Both the position numbers and the translations under genes were made by a program. Below are positions 5,915-49,277 of a DNA stretch of 64,000 nt, one piece after another. Every line of letters begins with the position of its first letter. Within the stretch, counting starts at the first letter, position 1. The stretch comes from an uncultured Alphaproteobacteria bacterium. Its GTDB lineage: Bacteria; Pseudomonadota; Alphaproteobacteria; RF32; CAG-239. The notes beneath the pieces are model-generated. The model was given only the letters and a program-made list of their open reading frames with translations. It had not been told where the DNA came from and made no database searches. The DNA lies in assembly GCA_944390315.1 (NCBI GenBank), contig CALXPO010000025.1, positions 73,286 through 137,285 on the forward strand, written 5' to 3'.

Positions 5915-8539
5915 TTATCCTTTGTTTAGCACATCAAATATTTTTTTTGTCAAATCCCCTAAGCTGAAAGGCTTAGCCATAAATTCGAAATTGCTGTCGG
6001 CAGAAATCTCGTTTCGGGCAATTTCTTCAGAATATCCTGAGGCTAAAATAATTTTTATATCGGGAATGAGCTGTTTTACTTTATTGGCTAATTCTATTCC
6101 ATTCATCCCGGGCATAACCATATCTGTTACCAGCAGTTGGAAATTTTGTTCTTTTTCGAGCTGTTCTAGCGCATTTTCGGCCGAATTGCAACCAATAACC
6201 TCATAACCTTTTTTCTTTAAGGCTCGAACGGCAAAACTACGAACGGAATCTTCATCTTCTACAAATAAAATACGAATGTTCGAATGATGATTTTCTTGAT
6301 CAAAACCACGGTCAATGGCTGATACGTTTAATCCAAAAATAAATTTTTGATTTACTGGCATAGAAGCACGTGGCTGCTCTTTGACTGTCATGACCGGTGA
6401 ACCATCGGCAGATGTGACTTCAGGATGTTTTACAACTTCATTTTGACCGATTTTCTGAGGGTTATCGGCAAAACGCGGCAGATAAATAAAAAATGTTGTG
6501 CCTTTGCCGACGGTACTGTTTACTCGAATAAAACCTCCGGTTTGTTGTACAATACCATAAACCATTGCCAATCCCAAGCCCGTACCGGAACCGACAATAT
6601 TTTGTTTGGTGGAGAAAAAGGGTTCAAATATTCGATTTAGATTTTCTTGAGGAATGCCGCATCCCGTATCAGAAACCTCTATAACAACAAAATCTCCCGG
6701 CGCAATTGTTTCTTCACCAAAAGGCTGAGGTTGTTGTATTCGTTCTGTTCTCGTCACAATTGTTAAAGTGCCGTTACCGTTCATCGCATCTTTGGCATTG
6801 ACTGCCAGATTAATAATAACTTGAGAAAACTGTACAGGATCAACCTTTATATAGCCTAAGTCGTTACCATGATGAAACTTTAATACTATTCTTTCTCCCA
6901 AAACTCGTTTGAGCATTTGGCTCAAGTCCATAAAGTTTTCGGTTACATCTATAAATTTGGGTTGCAGAGGCTGTTTTCGTGAAAAAGCCAACAATTGTCG
7001 TACCAACTGAGCCGCGCGATTGGCATTGTTCTTTATTTGAATGAGGTCGGCAAAAGATGGATCACCGACATTGTGACGTTGAATAAGCAAATCGCAAAAA
7101 CCTATAATGGCTGTTAGAAGATTGTTAAAATCATGAGCAACACCTCCGGCTAATTGTCCCATGGCTTGCATCTTTTGTGCTTGTGCAAACTTATTTTCCA
7201 GTTCTTTTTGTTCCGTTGCATCAATCATAAAAATAACAAAACCGTCTATATCACTTGGACCATACAGACTTTGCATGGGGGTAACATAAGAAATGGCAAT
7301 TTTTTTTGTTTGATTTAGATTTATTTCCATGCTTGCATTCTTTTTTCTGCCGCTTTGTATATTATTGAACTCTATTGACAGATTGTGCCAGTCCGATTTG
7401 CCCATAAGAGTAGACAGATTGGCGTGAACTAAGTCTTGGCTATTGTTAAGAAGAAGTTTTTGCGCTTGATGATTATATTCCTTAATTGTGCCGTCCGTTT
7501 TAACAAATACGATACCGATGGGCGCTTTATCAAACAACCAACTGATTTTATCTAGTGTATCGGTAAGTTGATGATGCAATTTTTCATCATTAGGCAAATC
7601 CGAAATTGTTGTACCGCGTATTTTTATGATATTTTTTTCGCGAAATGTATCTTGCCGAATAAAGACTTCGCAATCCTGTGAATATTTATTGATAAAATGA
7701 ACCGTATGACTCCATTCGTCACAGGGCGGTATGGGGGAATTTTTGCTTAACAATTGTTTTAGATTGCTTCCGATGATTTTTTCACGGTCATATCCTAACA
7801 TTTTAGCAAAAGCATGATTACAATACTGAATTGTCAGTTCGTTGTCGCAGATATATAGTCCAATCGGCAAATAGTCGGTAAAATCATGTAATCCGCGTCG
7901 CTCTTCTTTAAAAATTTGTTCCAAGTTATGTTCGTTTGTAATATCTTTGAAACTCCAATATACAAATGTATCTTTGCGTATTTTTTTTAGAGCCAGAGTA
8001 TGTTCAAACAAATCTGTTTTTTTTAACGAAATGGGGCGAAGCGTTATTTCGTACCAATTTTGATTTTCGGCATTATCTCCGCTTTTGAGTGATAAGATTA
8101 CTTTTTCGTTGTTTAGATTGGCAAATGCATTTTTTAATCTTTGAAAGGCAAGGGGATTGTTGCGATTATACGGAGATAAGTTATTTTGCAAAAAACTTAA
8201 AATCCCGCCCCGATTAAACATTTCTTTAGCCATATCATTTTCAATGATAACTTGACCTTTGGCGTTATCAATACGTTTGGCCTGAGTGCTTTTATTAATG
8301 ATTTCGTTGGCAAAACCGCCATAATTTATAGCTTTTTCACCGGCTTTTAGAGTTAACAGCGACAGTACGATACAAAAGATGGTAACTGCCGCCGTTAAGC
8401 CTAAAAACAATATCATATACTTTGGAAATAAGATTGTCGAAATTAACAAGAGTGTCAGCACTACCAAAGAATATGCCAATCCTATCAGCCTTTTTTGTAA
8501 AAGTCTGTCCGGACGAGATATTTTGGTATGTGCTAACAT
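5915..8539 (-). CDS. cckA: Hybrid sensor histidine kinase / response regulator with a CckA-like architecture
   Basis: N-terminal TM helices, PAS-like repeats, HisKA H-box VAHDFNNLLTAIIGFCDLL, an HATPase_c domain, and a C-terminal receiver (ILFVEDEDSVR...LLVTDMVMPGMNG). The gene symbol is inferred from domain order and the hdaA/mipZ neighbourhood. Confidence 0.55.
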   Translation of the reverse strand: MLAHTKISRPDRLLQKRLIGLAYSLVVLTLLLISTILFPKYMILFLGLTAAVTIFCIVLSLLTLKAGEKAINYGGFANEIINKSTQAKRIDNAKGQVIIENDMAKEMFNRGGILSFLQNNLSPYNRNNPLAFQRLKNAFANLNNEKVILSLKSGDNAENQNWYEITLRPISLKKTDLFEHTLALKKIRKDTFVYWSFKDITNEHNLEQIFKEERRGLHDFTDYLPIGLYICDNELTIQYCNHAFAKMLGYDREKIIGSNLKQLLSKNSPIPPCDEWSHTVHFINKYSQDCEVFIRQDTFREKNIIKIRGTTISDLPNDEKLHHQLTDTLDKISWLFDKAPIGIVFVKTDGTIKEYNHQAQKLLLNNSQDLVHANLSTLMGKSDWHNLSIEFNNIQSGRKKNASMEINLNQTKKIAISYVTPMQSLYGPSDIDGFVIFMIDATEQKELENKFAQAQKMQAMGQLAGGVAHDFNNLLTAIIGFCDLLIQRHNVGDPSFADLIQIKNNANRAAQLVRQLLAFSRKQPLQPKFIDVTENFMDLSQMLKRVLGERIVLKFHHGNDLGYIKVDPVQFSQVIINLAVNAKDAMNGNGTLTIVTRTERIQQPQPFGEETIAPGDFVVIEVSDTGCGIPQENLNRIFEPFFSTKQNIVGSGTGLGLAMVYGIVQQTGGFIRVNSTVGKGTTFFIYLPRFADNPQKIGQNEVVKHPEVTSADGSPVMTVKEQPRASMPVNQKFIFGLNVSAIDRGFDQENHHSNIRILFVEDEDSVRSFAVRALKKKGYEVIGCNSAENALEQLEKEQNFQLLVTDMVMPGMNGIELANKVKQLIPDIKIILASGYSEEIARNEISADSNFEFMAKPFSLGDLTKKIFDVLNKG

Positions 8540-30452: not shown

Positions 30453-30648
30453 ATTTGGTATGGCGAGTCGCATACTTGCCGAATAAACAAACGGCTTACG
30501 ACTATTCTATAAGTAGGTAAAATTTCAAATTTTGCCTACTTTTGTGTCTAAAAAGCAAAAAAATATCAGAATCCCCAAAAAATAACTTGTCAAAAAAAAG
30601 TTTTTTGTCTATCTTAAAAAGTACGTTAACTTATTAAAAAATTATTTT

Positions 30649-30930
30649 ATGGACAATTTAAAAGATCAACTCAAGGTCGCAAGTGAAAGTGAACTGGTAG
30701 CCCTTGTCAACAACGTGACTGAACAACTCAGAAGTGGTCGCTATCGTAAAGTGGAAGTTCAGCGTGATGTTATCACGGTTCTCTCTCAACGTAAGCCCCG
30801 AGTTTGTGCCGCTACTCGCAGTGCATACCAATCGTTTATATACAACGTATGCGGAGTGGCTGCAAAAAATCAGGATGTATTGAAAAGAGCCAAGAACTTC
30901 GCTCGAGCCAATGGTCTTGACTGGAAATAG
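30649..30930 (+). CDS. Hypothetical protein (orphan)
   Basis: 93-aa ORF in an AT-rich stretch, 38 nt upstream of the next orphan ORF. Confidence 0.4.
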   Translation: MDNLKDQLKVASESELVALVNNVTEQLRSGRYRKVEVQRDVITVLSQRKPRVCAATRSAYQSFIYNVCGVAAKNQDVLKRAKNFARANGLDWK

Positions 30931-30968
30931 AAAAATGTCTAATCACCCGATGGGTACTAAAATCAAAA

Positions 30969-31712
30969 TTGATGGCTAGAAAATTTACTCAAGAAGAGAA
31001 AGAAATTCTCCGTATGGAATGGCGTCGACGCAACCCAGAAGAAGCAGCAAGACGCGAAGCCAAAAAAAATGCAGCCGAACAAGAAAGGTTGCGCAAGGAA
31101 AACGAAGAAATAGAACAAGAAAACTATTGCTTTTCCGCGCTCCCCAGAGATGAAAAGGCTGTAGAAGCGTATCGCAAAAAAATCAGCGGGTTATTGGAAC
31201 ATATTACCTTGAAAAGAGAGCAATATGTTCAGGATCGAAATTTGGAAGCCTCAAGGCTCTCAAACGATGTCCGAAAAGATTTCATAGCTTACGTCAGTCG
31301 TAACTATGACGGACATAACCAAGCTATCGCCGGCGTTATCTGCGCTTTATTGGTCGAGGGTCTACGATATCCTGACAAAGAGTTGAATTCCTTTTCTTTC
31401 AACTTTTTGAAGGATAGGGAGATTGAAAATCCGAACTGGATATTGTGGATATCAATCTGGAGTATGGAATTTGTGCCGTTGGATGCGGTACGTTTAATGC
31501 TCAAGATGGAAAACGGCAGTTTTCAGGCTATTGATACTTTCAGAGATTTAATGAGAATCGTAGCTCCAAAGGTATTATGGCATCTCGAACAAGAGTACAA
31601 AAGGCTGGAATGGTCAAAGAAAATTGATGATCCGGTTATCCGTGAAAGAGAAATAGCGAGAAAAACAAAAAGAATCTCCTATTTCAAAGCGCTGATTAAA
31701 GCGTACGAATAA
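30969..31712 (+). CDS. Hypothetical protein with a highly charged coiled-coil N-terminus (orphan)
   Basis: 247 aa beginning KFTQEEKEILRMEWRRRNPEEAARREAKKNAAEQERLRKENEEIEQE, with a Trp-rich hydrophobic patch (WILWISIWSMEF). Followed by a strong terminator. Confidence 0.45.
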   Translation: MMARKFTQEEKEILRMEWRRRNPEEAARREAKKNAAEQERLRKENEEIEQENYCFSALPRDEKAVEAYRKKISGLLEHITLKREQYVQDRNLEASRLSNDVRKDFIAYVSRNYDGHNQAIAGVICALLVEGLRYPDKELNSFSFNFLKDREIENPNWILWISIWSMEFVPLDAVRLMLKMENGSFQAIDTFRDLMRIVAPKVLWHLEQEYKRLEWSKKIDDPVIREREIARKTKRISYFKALIKAYE

Positions 31713-31721
31713 AAAGCCTAA

Positions 31722-31765
31722 AATGAAAAAAACGCCTTCTTTATGAAGACGTTTTTTTCATTTTA
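31722..31765 (+). terminator. Rho-independent terminator
   Basis: gaaaaaaacgccttc-tttatgaag-acgtttttttc followed by attttaaaag. Confidence 0.6.
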
Positions 31766-31922
31766 AAAGATTGTTGCGATATGAATTTTTTTTGAAACTC
31801 CGATACAGATATTAACTCACAATTTTTTGTGTTTAATATATAAAAAATAACTTGTCTAACACTTAAAAATCGTTCACAATAAGCAAAATTTAAAAAATTT
31901 GGTAGAATGATTGATATGAAGA

Positions 31923-33011
31923 ATGCAAAAATATAAAAGATACAGCCGCGGCGGGAAAGAAAAAGATAATAATTCCGTCCGTAATTATGCGGCTATAGAT
32001 TTGGGAACAAATTCCTGCCGTTTGGTGATTGCTTCTCCGACCCAAACATCTTTTCATATCATAGAAACATTTTCCCGTATAACCCGTTTGGGAGAGGGAA
32101 TTATAAAAGACAATAAACTGAGTCGAGAAGCAAGCCGCAGAACAATCAGGGCTTTAAAAATTTGTTCCGAAATCATAAGCGAATACGCCCCCATATACCG
32201 TGCACGTTTTGTGGCAACGGCTGCCTGTCGTCGTGCGAAAAACTGTAAGGATTTTGTGACAGAAGTTAAAAAACAAACAGGTTTGAATTTGGAGATAATT
32301 TCCTCTCAGGAAGAATCCCGTTTAGCGGTTATCGGTTGTATGCCGCTTTTAAAACGTAATATCAAAAGAGCCTTAGTCTTTGATATCGGCGGCGGTTCAA
32401 CCGAAATATCTCTGGCCAGAATGACGGTAAGCGGGAAAGCCTTTATTGAAGGATATGTTTCTTTGCCTTACGGCGTCGTTACGGTTTCAGAGGCTTTTCC
32501 CAATACGGATATGACCAATTTGGCCTATAACACAATCATAGAACGTACTGACAGTATATTAGCCGCATTTGAGGAAAAATATAAAATCAGCGAAGCTATT
32601 GAAAAAGGTGAAATACAGGTGATAGGAACTTCCGGAACGGTAACGGTTTTGGGAGCTATCCAACTCAATCTGAAACGCTATAATCGCTCGGCCGTTGACG
32701 GTATAATTATGTCGGCAAACGATGTAAAACATGCCATTACCAAAATTCGCCGTATGGGCGACGAAGGTCGAAAAAAACATCCTTGCATCGGTCCGTTGAA
32801 AGCAGATTTGACAATTGCCGGTTGCGCAATTATTGAAGCTATCTCGTCGTTTTGGCCGATAAAAGAAATTACCGTGGCCGATAGAGGCATCAGAGAAGGA
32901 ATTTTGCTTGATATGATGCATAATCATAAAAAATTTCGTCATCATTTGTTCAAACATTCAAAATATAAGAGAGTTAATAAAGATGGAAAAGCAAGCTCTG
33001 GCAGCCATTGA
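31923..33011 (+). CDS. Ppx/GppA-family phosphatase (exopolyphosphatase / pppGpp phosphohydrolase), paralog 1
   Basis: AAIDLGTNSCRLVIA (ASKHA phosphate-1 motif) and VFDIGGGSTEISL. 362 aa with no C-terminal HD-like extension. Confidence 0.7.
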   Translation: MQKYKRYSRGGKEKDNNSVRNYAAIDLGTNSCRLVIASPTQTSFHIIETFSRITRLGEGIIKDNKLSREASRRTIRALKICSEIISEYAPIYRARFVATAACRRAKNCKDFVTEVKKQTGLNLEIISSQEESRLAVIGCMPLLKRNIKRALVFDIGGGSTEISLARMTVSGKAFIEGYVSLPYGVVTVSEAFPNTDMTNLAYNTIIERTDSILAAFEEKYKISEAIEKGEIQVIGTSGTVTVLGAIQLNLKRYNRSAVDGIIMSANDVKHAITKIRRMGDEGRKKHPCIGPLKADLTIAGCAIIEAISSFWPIKEITVADRGIREGILLDMMHNHKKFRHHLFKHSKYKRVNKDGKASSGSH

Positions 33012-33918
33012 TTTAGGGACCAATTCCTGTCGTTTATTAATAACCGATTTGGACGGTAACAAACTGTATAAAGATGCCGTTTCTACACGCATGGGCGAAA
33101 ATATGAGTTTAGCAAATTGTTTTACTCAAGAAGCCATAAAAAGAGGAATAGATTGCTTTTGTGCTTTTCGTAAAAAAATGGATGAATACAATATTGTTCG
33201 ATATCGTGCTATTGCCACGGCAGCTTGCCGCATGGCTAAAAACGGAAAAGATTTTGTTGCCTTAGTCAAAGAAAAATCCGGGATTAATCTTGAAGTCATA
33301 GATGGTTATCAAGAGGCGGTTTTGAATTTGAAAGGCGCAATGTTGAACCTTAAGCAAGAAGCGGCTGATTATGTACTGGTTTATGATTTGGGCGGCGGTT
33401 CAACCGAAATAACGCTTGCCACAAATGAGCAAAACCCGCAAATAATCCATACAATTTCCATTCCCTGGGGTGCACGCAACTCAAGTGAAAAGTTTGGATT
33501 GAAGGAATATAATGCTTCGGCGGCAGAGAAACTGTATAAAGAAATTGCCGGTCATGTTCATCAGTTTATAAAAGATTCCGGCTGGGAAAAATATAAAAAT
33601 CAAACTCGTGTTGTTGCAACTTCAAGTACACCGTTAAGATTGGCACACATTGCTTTTGGTTGGAAAACCTATGATCGTACCCGTGCCGACGGCTTAAAGA
33701 TTAAAACCGTAGATTATGATAAAGCAATTGCCAAAGTTAAACAAATGTCTTGTGGCGAAATGGCCAAAGATGAATGCGTCGGTGCTCACCGTGCCGATAT
33801 TTTTCAGGCTGCCGGTGTCATCTTTTCATGCATATACAAGGAACTCGGCGTAAAAGAAATCATCGCTTCGTTTAAGAGCGCGGTTGACGGTATTATCGGA
33901 GAGTTGAAAAATGAGTAA
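32983..33918 (+). CDS. Ppx/GppA-family phosphatase, paralog 2
   Basis: AAIDLGTNSCRLLITD and VYDLGGGSTEITLA. 311 aa. Overlaps paralog 1 by 29 nt and rlmE by 8 nt. Confidence 0.7.
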   Translation: MEKQALAAIDLGTNSCRLLITDLDGNKLYKDAVSTRMGENMSLANCFTQEAIKRGIDCFCAFRKKMDEYNIVRYRAIATAACRMAKNGKDFVALVKEKSGINLEVIDGYQEAVLNLKGAMLNLKQEAADYVLVYDLGGGSTEITLATNEQNPQIIHTISIPWGARNSSEKFGLKEYNASAAEKLYKEIAGHVHQFIKDSGWEKYKNQTRVVATSSTPLRLAHIAFGWKTYDRTRADGLKIKTVDYDKAIAKVKQMSCGEMAKDECVGAHRADIFQAAGVIFSCIYKELGVKEIIASFKSAVDGIIGELKNE

Positions 33919-48426: not shown

Positions 48427-48481
48427 AAGTTTCTGATTGTATCAAAATAGGGGAAATGCTTAAGTATTTCCTCTTTTTTTA

Positions 48482-48575
48482 TAGTTGCCTTAGCATTTAA
48501 CGCCGGCAATCACGGTCAAAACGCATGGTTTTTAGCTGATTTAGAACCCACAGTTGACTGGGAATGTCTACCGGC
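48482..48575. repeat. Intergenic repeat element, partial (3' module only)
   Basis: tagttgcctta...cacggtcaaaacgcatggtttttagctgatttagaacccacagtt... Confidence 0.55.
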
Positions 48576-49277
48576 AGCCCGACAAGAAAATTGAGATTTT
48601 TTGTTTTCGTCCTTATTATAGTGCAATTTACAAAACTTATTCATAATAAAAATACGAATAAGTTTTGGGTAGGGAATTGGAAGCATCATGCTTGTGGTCA
48701 AAAATTTCGGACAATCTTTATTACTATAGACGACAAGGAGAAATATAATGGAATTTCTCAATCAAATTTTGCAGAGCCGGCAAAAAATCATAATAATAAT
48801 CAACAGATTATGCTAACAATTTAACAGACGAGGCGGTGAGTTTTGTCTGTCTTATACACTATATATATTTGTCGTATAATCTATATTATGTATAGTTTGA
48901 TATTCGGAGATAATAAATTGAAATTAAAATATATTATTCAAATTTCTAACGCCAATTTCACTTATTTTTAACAACAAATTCAAAAAATATGCTCATATTA
49001 TCAAAATCTCGACCTCTATCTCATCTGCGCACCACAAATCTGCACCTGTCGAACACATTTCATAACTTTTTAATAACACAACATATTCAATAAATAACTT
49101 GTCGATAACTTCAATCTCATCGCAATATCTTACACCTTTGCAATTCGGCTTGAGATAAATTGTCTTATAAAACATTTTTATTAAGTTGAAATGCAATATA
49201 TCCACTTGAATAATTTGATTATTAAAATGAATTCAAATTATCCTCGACACAGTCTTAAATCTTTCTGTAAATTGCCG

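What the first reader, a model, noticed from the sequence alone, without database searches (positions are those of the whole stretch)
30649..31712. Self-contained orphan gene pair (93 aa + 247 aa) with its own AT-rich promoter region and strong terminator
Two co-directional ORFs separated by 38 nt lie between trxB and the Ppx/GppA genes. A roughly 200-bp AT-rich region precedes them, containing a candidate promoter (ttgtcaaaaaaaag....tatctt). A 10-bp-stem terminator follows. The second protein has an extremely charged coiled-coil N-terminus (about 60 residues of E/K/R) followed by a Trp-rich hydrophobic segment. Neither protein matches a family I recognise. A small gene followed by a larger one in an isolated cassette is the layout of toxin-antitoxin, immunity/effector or phage-derived modules. 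This could be a lineage-specific system.
Basis: inference. Interest (0 to 1): 0.5.

Follow-up and report, generated by a model that had tools for sequence, protein, structure and literature searches.

The report
Clade-specific orphan two-gene operon
This is a real two-gene operon with its own promoter and terminator that encodes two helical proteins of unknown function, and it is an old, vertically inherited feature of uncultured gut Alphaproteobacteria rather than a toxin-antitoxin, immunity or phage-derived cassette.

Summary
ORF1 (30649-30930, 93 aa) and ORF2 (30972-31712, 246 aa) form a self-contained unit between a TrxB-type reductase gene and two Ppx/GppA genes. The unit has a sigma-70-type promoter (30587-30615) and a strong terminator (31719-31765).

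The toxin-antitoxin, immunity or phage reading is not supported:
- The pair is adjacent in at least 14 related gut alphaproteobacterial species.
- ORF1 and ORF2 co-evolve (r = 0.95).
- The pair's GC follows host GC (r = 0.81).
- It sits in a deeply conserved chromosomal block: MacB-ABC-MFP (divergent) | [ORF1] ORF2 | g3 | g4 | BrkB-SDR-gatCAB.
- Its promoter core TTTTTGTCTA is invariant across 13 species.
- A terminator follows ORF2 in all eight loci inspected.

The window's species is a derived case. The promoter-ORF1-ORF2-terminator unit lies in a new position, with no g3, g4 or MacAB within 64 kb.

Most likely it encodes a non-enzymatic, cytoplasmic helical-repeat complex made of a basic small subunit and a solenoid subunit. 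The molecular function is unknown. Interest is modest.

The parts
30511..30541 (+). Terminator-like hairpin that closes the upstream TrxB-type gene. It separates that gene from the ORF1 promoter.
   Evidence: 14-pair stem followed by a T-rich tail.
30587..30615 (+). Operon promoter. The -35 TTGTCA is at 30587-30592, the spacer is 17 nt, and the -10 TATCTT is at 30610-30615. It contains the clade-invariant block TTTTTGTCTA (30602-30611).
   Evidence: The -35 TTG and ten contiguous columns are invariant in 13 species. The motif is specific to this position (15 of 16 occurrences in 272 kb).
30616..30648 (+). A/T-only 5' leader without a Shine-Dalgarno sequence. The transcription start is inferred to lie a few nt after 30615.
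   Evidence: Orthologous leaders are also SD-less and AT-rich, although about half of the window's genes have an SD.
30649..30930 (+). ORF1: 93 aa, pI 9.9, a five-helix HEAT-like bundle with about nine conserved Arg/Lys residues (GRYRKVxVQR...QRKPRV...TR...KNQ).
   Evidence: (pLDDT 93, pTM 0.85).
30972..31712 (+). ORF2: 246 aa (an alternative TTG start lies at 30969). It has a charged N-terminal helical hairpin (residues 8-52), a short disordered linker, and an alpha-solenoid domain (62-246). Invariant motifs are GLRYPD and VPLDAVRLM, and there is one beta-hairpin (178-187).
   Evidence: (pLDDT 88, pTM 0.70).
31719..31765 (+). Intrinsic terminator of A-run / hairpin / U-run type. It could work in both directions.
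   Evidence: dG -21.4 kcal/mol, z = -7.9. An equivalent hairpin plus T-run follows ORF2 in all seven related loci inspected; four of these were folded.

Best explanation
What is shown: the region is a vertically inherited, clade-specific, bicistronic operon of uncultured gut Alphaproteobacteria. Its layout is conserved promoter, SD-less leader, ORF1, ORF2, terminator.

Ancestrally the operon lay divergent to a MacB/ABC/MFP exporter operon. It was followed by two further orphan genes (g3 of about 330 aa, g4 of about 200 aa) and then BrkB-SDR-gatCAB. In the window's species the ORF1-ORF2 unit, with its own promoter and terminator, sits in a new position between trxB and ppx, without g3 or g4 nearby.

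What is inferred: the two products are cytoplasmic, non-enzymatic alpha-helical-repeat proteins that act together as a complex. ORF1 is a small, strongly basic five-helix module. It probably docks on, or works with, the N-terminal part of ORF2, and its conserved Arg/Lys surface binds a polyanionic partner (a nucleic acid, or an acidic protein segment). ORF2 supplies a solenoid scaffold whose invariant GLRYPD loop and VPLDAVRLM helix form the main interaction surface.

The module therefore behaves like a lineage-specific housekeeping or regulatory scaffold, not like a conflict system. Its actual cellular role is unknown.
For: Real genes:
- dN/dS is 0.08-0.26.
- The AF2 models are confident.

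Operon:
- The ORF1-ORF2 gap is 13-89 nt in 13 loci.
- The promoter is conserved and specific to this position.
- A terminator follows ORF2 in the window and in all seven related loci inspected, and g3 has its own promoter-like region.

Vertical inheritance:
- The synteny table shows MacB-ABC-MFP divergently upstream in 17 of 25 related loci, covering all deep subfamilies.
- BrkB lies downstream in 8 loci; SDR-gatCAB follows in the 7 whose contig reaches that far.
- The pair's GC tracks the flanking GC (r = 0.81, p = 4e-4).
- The context is fixed across independent samples of one species.

The two proteins act together:
- Pairwise identities of ORF1 and ORF2 correlate (Pearson r = 0.95 over 91 pairs).
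- ORF1 is present only where ORF2 has the 'W..NPEEAARR'-type N-terminus. ORF1-less loci have a different N-terminus.
- In the ORF1-less subfamily, a different small upstream ORF (L018) is found fused to the N-terminus of ORF2 in P0063.

Non-enzymatic scaffold:
- There is no family hit in any member.
- There is no TM segment, and no N-terminal signal peptide is apparent in either sequence.
- ORF1 has a pI of 9.9 and many invariant Arg/Lys residues.
Against: - No direct evidence of a physical ORF1-ORF2 complex.
- No ligand or partner has been identified.
- An all-alpha fold with generic solenoid hits does not exclude an unrecognised enzymatic or DNA-binding activity. R133, D136, D172 and R175 of ORF2 are invariant or nearly so and could form an active site.
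- Codon usage of the pair in the window is atypical (CAI-like 0.61 and 0.63 against 0.73 +/- 0.015; length-matched null at most 2e-4). This could mean low expression or a more complicated history.
- Universality within the clade was not measured on complete genomes.
Confidence: 0.55

Rival explanations
1. Envelope-linked accessory or regulatory module. ORF2, with g3 and in most species ORF1 and g4, would be a cytoplasmic adaptor or regulator functionally tied to the divergently transcribed MacB-ABC-MFP tripartite exporter and the neighbouring envelope genes (large lipoproteins, OMP, BrkB/YihY).
For: - The MacB-ABC-MFP operon is the most persistent neighbour. It is divergently adjacent in 14 of about 21 distinct species-level loci. 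These include the most distant double-domain relative (L035/L036) and the ORF1-less subfamily.
- Other ancestral neighbours are envelope proteins.
- A divergent arrangement with a shared intergenic region is typical of local regulators (general knowledge).
Against: - Adjacency is lost in 7 species, including the window, with the pair retained. The window has no MacAB within 64 kb.
- The downstream BrkB-SDR-gatCAB synteny is similarly conserved in the close subfamily, so the adjacency may be plain ancestral synteny.
- No DNA-binding domain is detectable in ORF1 or ORF2.
- The pair does not look like a TetR-type regulator by either sequence or fold.
Confidence: 0.15
2. Nucleic-acid-binding housekeeping factor. 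ORF1 would be a small basic RNA- or DNA-binding protein, for example ribosome-, RNAP- or nucleoid-associated. ORF2 would be its partner or chaperone, possibly autoregulating through the conserved T5-GTCTATATT promoter element.
For: - ORF1 has a pI of 9.9 and about nine conserved Arg/Lys residues in 93 aa.
- The promoter core is extraordinarily conserved even at about 30% protein identity.
- The SD-less leader is conserved.
- The promoter is near-consensus in most species.
Against: - There is no structural match to known nucleic-acid-binding folds.
- The promoter element is also present in L018, which lacks ORF1, so ORF1 is not needed for its conservation.
- The element is not palindromic.
- ORF1 is absent from a whole subfamily that keeps ORF2 and g3.
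Confidence: 0.15
3. One reading: a type II toxin-antitoxin, immunity/effector or other conflict cassette, with the small ORF1 neutralising the larger ORF2.
For: - The layout is small gene then larger gene, with its own promoter and terminator.
- Both are orphan proteins.
- Codon usage in the window is atypical.
- Two of 18 ORF1 family members give sub-threshold hits to ParD_antitoxin (E = 0.04) and to colicin/pyocin immunity (E = 0.08).
Against: - No PADLOC, Pfam or NCBIfam toxin, antitoxin or immunity family hit is significant or consistent.
- ORF2 is an alpha-solenoid with no toxin-like fold.
- The genes do not overlap.
- ORF1 is basic rather than an acidic DNA-binding antitoxin, and there is no palindromic operator.
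- There is one copy per locus, deep vertical inheritance with conserved synteny and host-matched GC, and a fixed position within species.
- A whole subfamily keeps ORF2 without ORF1. That would be lethal if ORF1 were the only antidote.
Confidence: 0.05
4. Remnant of a phage, ICE or other mobile element that inserted between trxB and ppx.
For: - In this species the unit lies outside the ancestral neighbourhood.
- Its GC is slightly higher and its codon usage atypical.
Against: - There are no hits in 50,697 phage records or 72,556 plasmids, nor in IMG/VR.
- BFVD gives a best E of 0.33, and PHROGs has nothing significant.
- No integrase, transposase or repeats flank the pair. There are no tandem repeats and no tRNA adjacent to it.
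- The same unit is chromosomal and syntenic in relatives.
Confidence: 0.03

Closest known systems
HEAT/ARM-like alpha-helical repeat (alpha-solenoid) scaffold proteins, e.g. Noc3 (8i9v_CT), designed helical repeat DHR14 (5h7c_C), PP2A A subunit (3c5w_A)
   Different: Sequence identity is at most 18%. No HEAT, ARM or TPR Pfam model is hit. The hits are spread over many unrelated solenoids, so this is resemblance at fold-class level and not homology. ORF2 also has a charged N-terminal helical hairpin and a beta-hairpin that are not part of a canonical repeat.
Type II toxin-antitoxin operons
   Same: Two co-directional genes, small then larger, transcribed from their own promoter and ended by a terminator.
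   Different: The pair lacks a toxin or antitoxin fold or family, an operator palindrome, gene overlap, mobility and patchiness. The 'toxin' gene persists without the 'antitoxin' gene in a whole subfamily.
Local regulators divergently transcribed from efflux-pump operons (e.g. TetR-family regulators next to pump genes)
   Same: The ancestral position is divergent from a MacB-ABC-MFP exporter operon with a shared intergenic region. ORF2 is an all-alpha protein of about 250 aa.

Membership tests
Type II toxin-antitoxin module | The toxin belongs to a recognised toxin fold or family (RelE/ParE, MazF, VapC/PIN, HipA, Doc/Fic, HicA, Zeta, GNAT, etc.). | tested here: not met
Type II toxin-antitoxin module | The antitoxin has a DNA-binding domain (RHH, HTH, AbrB, Phd/YefM). 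| tested here: not met
   ORF1 is a five-helix HEAT-like bundle. Only 2 of 18 members give a sub-threshold ParD hit (E = 0.04).
Type II toxin-antitoxin module | Patchy, often multi-copy, horizontally mobile distribution. | tested here: not met
   There is a single copy per locus, with conserved synteny across the clade, GC tracking the host and a fixed position within species. There are no plasmid or phage copies.
Type II toxin-antitoxin module | The toxin arrests growth and the cognate antitoxin rescues it. | not testable with these tools
   This needs expression assays.
Anti-phage defence system (PADLOC catalogue) | A match to a model of a known or candidate defence protein. | tested here: not met
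   No PADLOC hit at E up to 1 for ORF1, ORF2, g3 or g4.
Phage-derived gene (PHROGs / phage genomes / BFVD) | Sequence or structural similarity to viral proteins, or a location on viral contigs. | tested here: not met
   The best PHROGs E-value is 0.027. tblastn against phages finds nothing. The best BFVD E-value is 0.33. IMG/VR gives nothing.
HEAT/ARM repeat superfamily | Tandem helical-hairpin repeats forming a solenoid. | tested here: inconclusive
TetR-type local regulator of an efflux operon | An N-terminal HTH (TetR_N) plus a C-terminal helical ligand-binding domain. | tested here: not met

The most novel reading that the evidence does not exclude
ORF1 and ORF2, together with g3 and g4 in most relatives, would be subunits of a previously unrecognised, clade-restricted cytoplasmic machine of uncultured gut Alphaproteobacteria. 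It would be built from four protein families with no detectable homologues elsewhere, controlled by an unusually conserved promoter element, and functionally coupled to the neighbouring MacAB-type exporter or to envelope biogenesis.
Probability: 0.15. Interest if true: 0.55.

Novelty: new variant of a known kind. Interest (0 to 1): 0.3.

Why it matters
The gut alphaproteobacterial lineage that carries this operon is uncultured, and its biology is known only from MAGs.

The pair, with its partners g3 and g4, defines a small set of protein families found only in this clade: 60 clusters at 50% identity among 1.84 billion representatives. These families are under purifying selection, are held in a conserved chromosomal block, and are driven by a promoter whose core is invariant across genera.

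That marks them as lineage-defining genes worth characterising, and as a useful promoter and terminator set for this clade.

The result also removes a false lead. The 'small gene plus larger gene' layout here does not indicate a toxin-antitoxin or defence cassette.

Tried and rejected
**Searches that found no meaningful similarity**
- Pfam, PHROGs, NCBIfam and PADLOC scans of ORF1, ORF2, g3 and g4 gave nothing significant. Pfam scans of every member of the three alignments gave no recurring hit.
- PDB sequence-profile searches with the ORF1, ORF2 and g3 alignments gave nothing with E below 0.04.
- tblastn against phages and plasmids found no match. The IMG/VR scan found none.
- Rfam on the region gave only sub-threshold hits to the terminator hairpin.
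- The public sources give these proteins no name. A literature search on the lineage gave nothing on function.

**Ideas tested and dropped**
- Membrane anchor for the Trp-rich segment: maximum KD is 1.23 and the segment is buried in the model.
- P0063 as an ORF1-ORF2 fusion: its N-terminal extension is a different small protein, related to the L018 upstream ORF.
- Paralogy among ORF1, ORF2 and g3: hhalign probabilities are at most about 1%.
- PhoB-box reading of the TTGTC direct repeat in the promoter: the spacing is 18 bp rather than 11, and the first copy is not conserved (read; the Pho-box consensus is from memory).
- 'g3 without the pair' contigs: these are explained by assemblies breaking in a length-variable repeat spacer.

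- AFDB50 was not available.
- The first genome scan, with a single sequence, found nothing. The alignment-based scan worked.
- The g3 alignment A5 was too divergent for the metagenome scan. The closer alignment A6 worked.

Full report
**1. The observation**

The window holds two co-directional ORFs. ORF1 is 30649-30930 (93 aa) and ORF2 is 30969-31712 (247 aa from a TTG start). The ATG at 30972 gives the 246-aa product that gene callers report (P0001).

Upstream is a TrxB-type pyridine-nucleotide disulphide reductase. Downstream are two tandem Ppx/GppA genes, then FtsJ/RlmE and RsmB. An alphaproteobacterial two-piece tmRNA elsewhere in the window (RF01849, 211 bits) shows that the host is an alphaproteobacterium.

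The upstream gene has its own terminator-like hairpin at 30511-30541. A sigma-70-type promoter follows: TTGTCA, 17 nt, TATCTT at 30587-30615.

After ORF2, the plus-strand RNA folds into a 20-pair hairpin with one mismatch at 31719-31765 (dG -21.4 kcal/mol, z = -7.9), followed by a U-run.

The 196-bp upstream region is 27.6% GC, which is ordinary for intergenic DNA in this genome (30.4 +/- 5.9%). ORF2's first 60 residues are 50% charged. The Trp-rich segment is not a membrane helix (maximum KD 1.23). So the description is correct, apart from the terminator being longer than stated and the hydrophobic segment being a buried helix.

**2. Both ORFs are real genes in narrow orphan families**

ORF2 has 21 homologues and ORF1 has 9-23 among 5.8 billion clustered proteins. 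None has a name or a Pfam domain.

An exhaustive profile search of 1.84 billion representatives finds only 60 clusters for ORF2. The alignments show sharp motifs:
- ORF2: GLRYPD, and VPLDAVRLM preceded by conserved Trp residues.
- ORF1: GRYRKVxVQR, QRKPRV, TR and KNQ.

dN/dS between unsaturated orthologue pairs is 0.08-0.26 for both genes.

No library gives a significant or recurrent hit to any member. This covers Pfam, PHROGs, NCBIfam, PADLOC and PDB sequence profiles.

**3. Structure**

AlphaFold2 with the family alignments gives confident models:
- ORF1: pLDDT 93, pTM 0.85, five helices.
- ORF2: pLDDT 88, pTM 0.70. It has a helical hairpin at 8-52, a short disordered linker, then a helical domain at 62-246 with a single beta-hairpin at 178-187, right after the invariant VPLDAVRLM helix.

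ORF1 is strongly basic (pI 9.9; 17 K+R against 9 D+E), and most of its conserved positions are Arg or Lys.

The two proteins therefore look like non-enzymatic helical-repeat modules. That is a resemblance at fold-class level, not family membership.

**4. Where the family lives, and how**

An alignment-based scan of one genome per GTDB species returned 18 loci. All but one (L009, labelled Bacteroidaceae and probably mis-binned) are gut or rumen MAGs labelled Alphaproteobacteria, 'uncultured Azospirillum sp.', Rhodospirillales or Proteobacteria.

ORF1 lies 13-89 nt upstream of ORF2 in the window and in at least 13 of these species. Further contexts came from exact-protein look-ups and a metagenome scan.

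A tblastn synteny table reveals an ancestral block:

(large repeat lipoproteins, OMP) - MacB/ABC/MFP on the minus strand | [ORF1] ORF2 | g3 (about 330 aa) | g4 (about 200 aa) | BrkB (minus) - SDR - gatCAB

- The MacAB-type operon is divergently adjacent in 17 of the 25 related loci tabulated, which is 14 of about 21 distinct species-level loci.
- These include the ORF1-less subfamily (L014-L018, L031) and the most distant relatives, in which the ORF2 core is tandemly duplicated (P0086 in L035/L036).
- BrkB is downstream in 8 loci; SDR-gatCAB follows in the 7 whose contig reaches that far.
- g3 follows ORF2 in nearly every locus that is long enough.
- g3 and g4 are also orphans and are unrelated to ORF1 or ORF2.

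Other evidence for long residence and co-inheritance:
- The pair's GC follows the GC of the surrounding DNA across 14 loci (r = 0.81, p = 4e-4).
- ORF1 and ORF2 divergences are tightly coupled (r = 0.95 over 91 pairs).
- Within a species the context is the same in independent samples. This holds for the window species in 10 contigs, for P0002 in 16 and for P0008 in 18.

None of this fits a mobile or patchy element. There are also no copies in phage or plasmid records or in IMG/VR.

**5. The window's species is the derived case**

None of the ancestral neighbours, and no g3 or g4, occur anywhere in the 64-kb window. Only the unit promoter-ORF1-ORF2-terminator is present, between trxB and ppx.

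The pair's codon usage in the window differs from that of 29 other window genes. The CAI-like score is 0.61 and 0.63 against 0.73 +/- 0.015, and the length-matched null is at most 2e-4.

However, the pair is slightly GC-richer than its surroundings in most species, and it is not an outlier in L019 or L022. I read this as a family property or low expression rather than recent transfer. This point is not settled.

**6. Cis elements**

Across 13 species, down to about 30% protein identity, the -35 TTG and ten contiguous positions (TTTTTGTCTA, running into the -10 TATAtT) are invariant.

- TTTTGTCTATAWT occurs exactly once in each of 20 loci, always just upstream of ORF1.
- A looser form occurs 16 times in 272 kb of non-redundant loci. 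Fifteen of these are at this position, including upstream of a non-homologous small ORF that replaces ORF1 in L018.
- In the window the only match within one mismatch is at 30602.

The leader is purely A/T and lacks a Shine-Dalgarno sequence in all species, although about half of the window's genes have one.

A hairpin plus T-run follows ORF2 in the window and in all seven related loci inspected, and g3 has its own TTGACA-type promoter-like region. So 'self-contained cassette' is right as a statement about transcription, and it holds wherever I looked in the clade.

**7. Mechanism**

Shown:
- A bicistronic, co-inherited, co-evolving gene pair under purifying selection.
- Products that are cytoplasmic and helical, with no enzymatic signature.

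Inferred:
- The two proteins form a complex.
- ORF1 is associated with the N-terminal part of ORF2.

The inference rests on three observations:
- ORF1 is present only where ORF2 has the 'W..NPEEAARR' N-terminus, and is absent where that region is replaced.
- In the ORF1-less branch, a different small upstream protein is found fused to the ORF2 N-terminus (P0063).
- The divergences of the two proteins correlate.

ORF1's conserved basic face suggests a polyanionic partner. ORF2's invariant GLRYPD loop and VPLDAVRLM helix probably form the key interface.

Two more specific readings remain open at about 0.15 each. One is a link to the MacAB-type exporter or the envelope, and the other is a nucleic-acid-binding or autoregulatory role. 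The second is weakened because the promoter element persists without ORF1.

**8. Comparison with known systems and verdict**

The pair fails every testable defining feature of type II TA modules, of catalogued defence systems and of phage-derived genes (see the membership table).

A whole subfamily keeps ORF2 without ORF1. That is hard to reconcile with ORF1 being the antidote to a toxin.

The nearest known kind is the broad class of HEAT/ARM-like helical-repeat scaffolds, at fold-class level only.

I rate it as a new variant of a known kind: orphan helical-repeat proteins in a lineage-specific operon. Interest is modest at 0.3. The finding is real and cleanly delimited and has an unusually conserved promoter, but it offers no evidence of an unusual mechanism.

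Noticed in passing
window 48427-49277 (core 48876-48891): An 850-bp non-coding region lies between convergent genes at the maximum of cumulative GC skew. It contains a unique dif-like core, ATAATCTATATTATGT (0.05 expected by chance). The full E. coli dif 22-mer is not matched within 3 mismatches. This is a candidate replication terminus with a XerC/D site.
   Followed up: partly
window 48841-48855: Within that same non-coding region, gTTTTGTCTgTCTTA resembles the ORF1 promoter core TTTTTGTCTATCTTA, with 2 mismatches (read). Its significance is unknown.
   Followed up: no
window 30580-30591, 31845-31856, 49092-49103: The 12-mer AAATAACTTGTC occurs three times exactly, all in intergenic DNA (a fourth, one-mismatch match at 8175-8186 lies on the minus strand). 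At up to one mismatch, 0.78 matches are expected against 4 found. Two exact copies provide the -35 regions of the ORF1 and ppx1 promoters, and the third lies in the candidate terminus region.
   Followed up: partly
window 18872-19224 (-): An alphaproteobacterial two-piece (permuted) tmRNA with tag peptide ANDNELAPVALAA. It confirms the phylum-level identity of the host.
   Followed up: yes
window 31923-33011 and 32983-33918: Two tandem Ppx/GppA-family paralogues overlap by 29 nt directly downstream of the pair.
   Followed up: no
window 30583 (strain variants L025, L028): The SNP T30583C removes the in-frame stop TAA at 30583-30585. Gene callers then extend ORF1 to 128-132 aa (P0022) across the conserved promoter, which is almost certainly an annotation artefact. 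Other strain SNPs are A30616G (just after the -10), V10A in ORF1, a synonymous change in ORF2, and Q47R at an invariant ORF1 position in a low-coverage contig.
   Followed up: yes
L058 4100-6000; L039 1510-2288; L047, L049, L051, L052, L063: In a common human-gut relative, the spacer between the ORF2 terminator and the g3 promoter is a pyrimidine-rich repeat region. Its length varies between samples from about 550 to 1,900 bp, and L058 includes a 163-bp unit present twice. Short assemblies break inside it.
   Followed up: partly
L022 742-7484; L001, L004, L006, L007, L012: Large paralogous proteins of 727 and 1,090 aa lie upstream of the cluster in several relatives. They have lipoprotein-type signal sequences and internal repeats of about 180 aa, and are accompanied by a 272-aa OMP-like protein. 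None has a Pfam hit on record.
   Followed up: no
L009 (CAVIWQ010000015.1): This contig is labelled 'Bacteroidaceae bacterium' but carries the same promoter-ORF1-ORF2-g3 arrangement as the alphaproteobacterial MAGs. It is probably mis-binned.
   Followed up: no
L019 8763-8912, L022 8766-8938, L033 4704-4928, L006 6748-6950, L031 8760-8886: The g3 leaders share a conserved motif, GAACAnTGATTATTAAT, about 20-30 nt before the start codon. It resembles the (G)AACAG...TTAATTAA pattern in the ORF1 leaders and could be a shared post-transcriptional or regulatory signal. The N-terminus of g3 (LP..R.AA..LLE.G....EI) looks like a sigma-region-4 or LuxR-type HTH by eye, but no HMM supports this.
   Followed up: no
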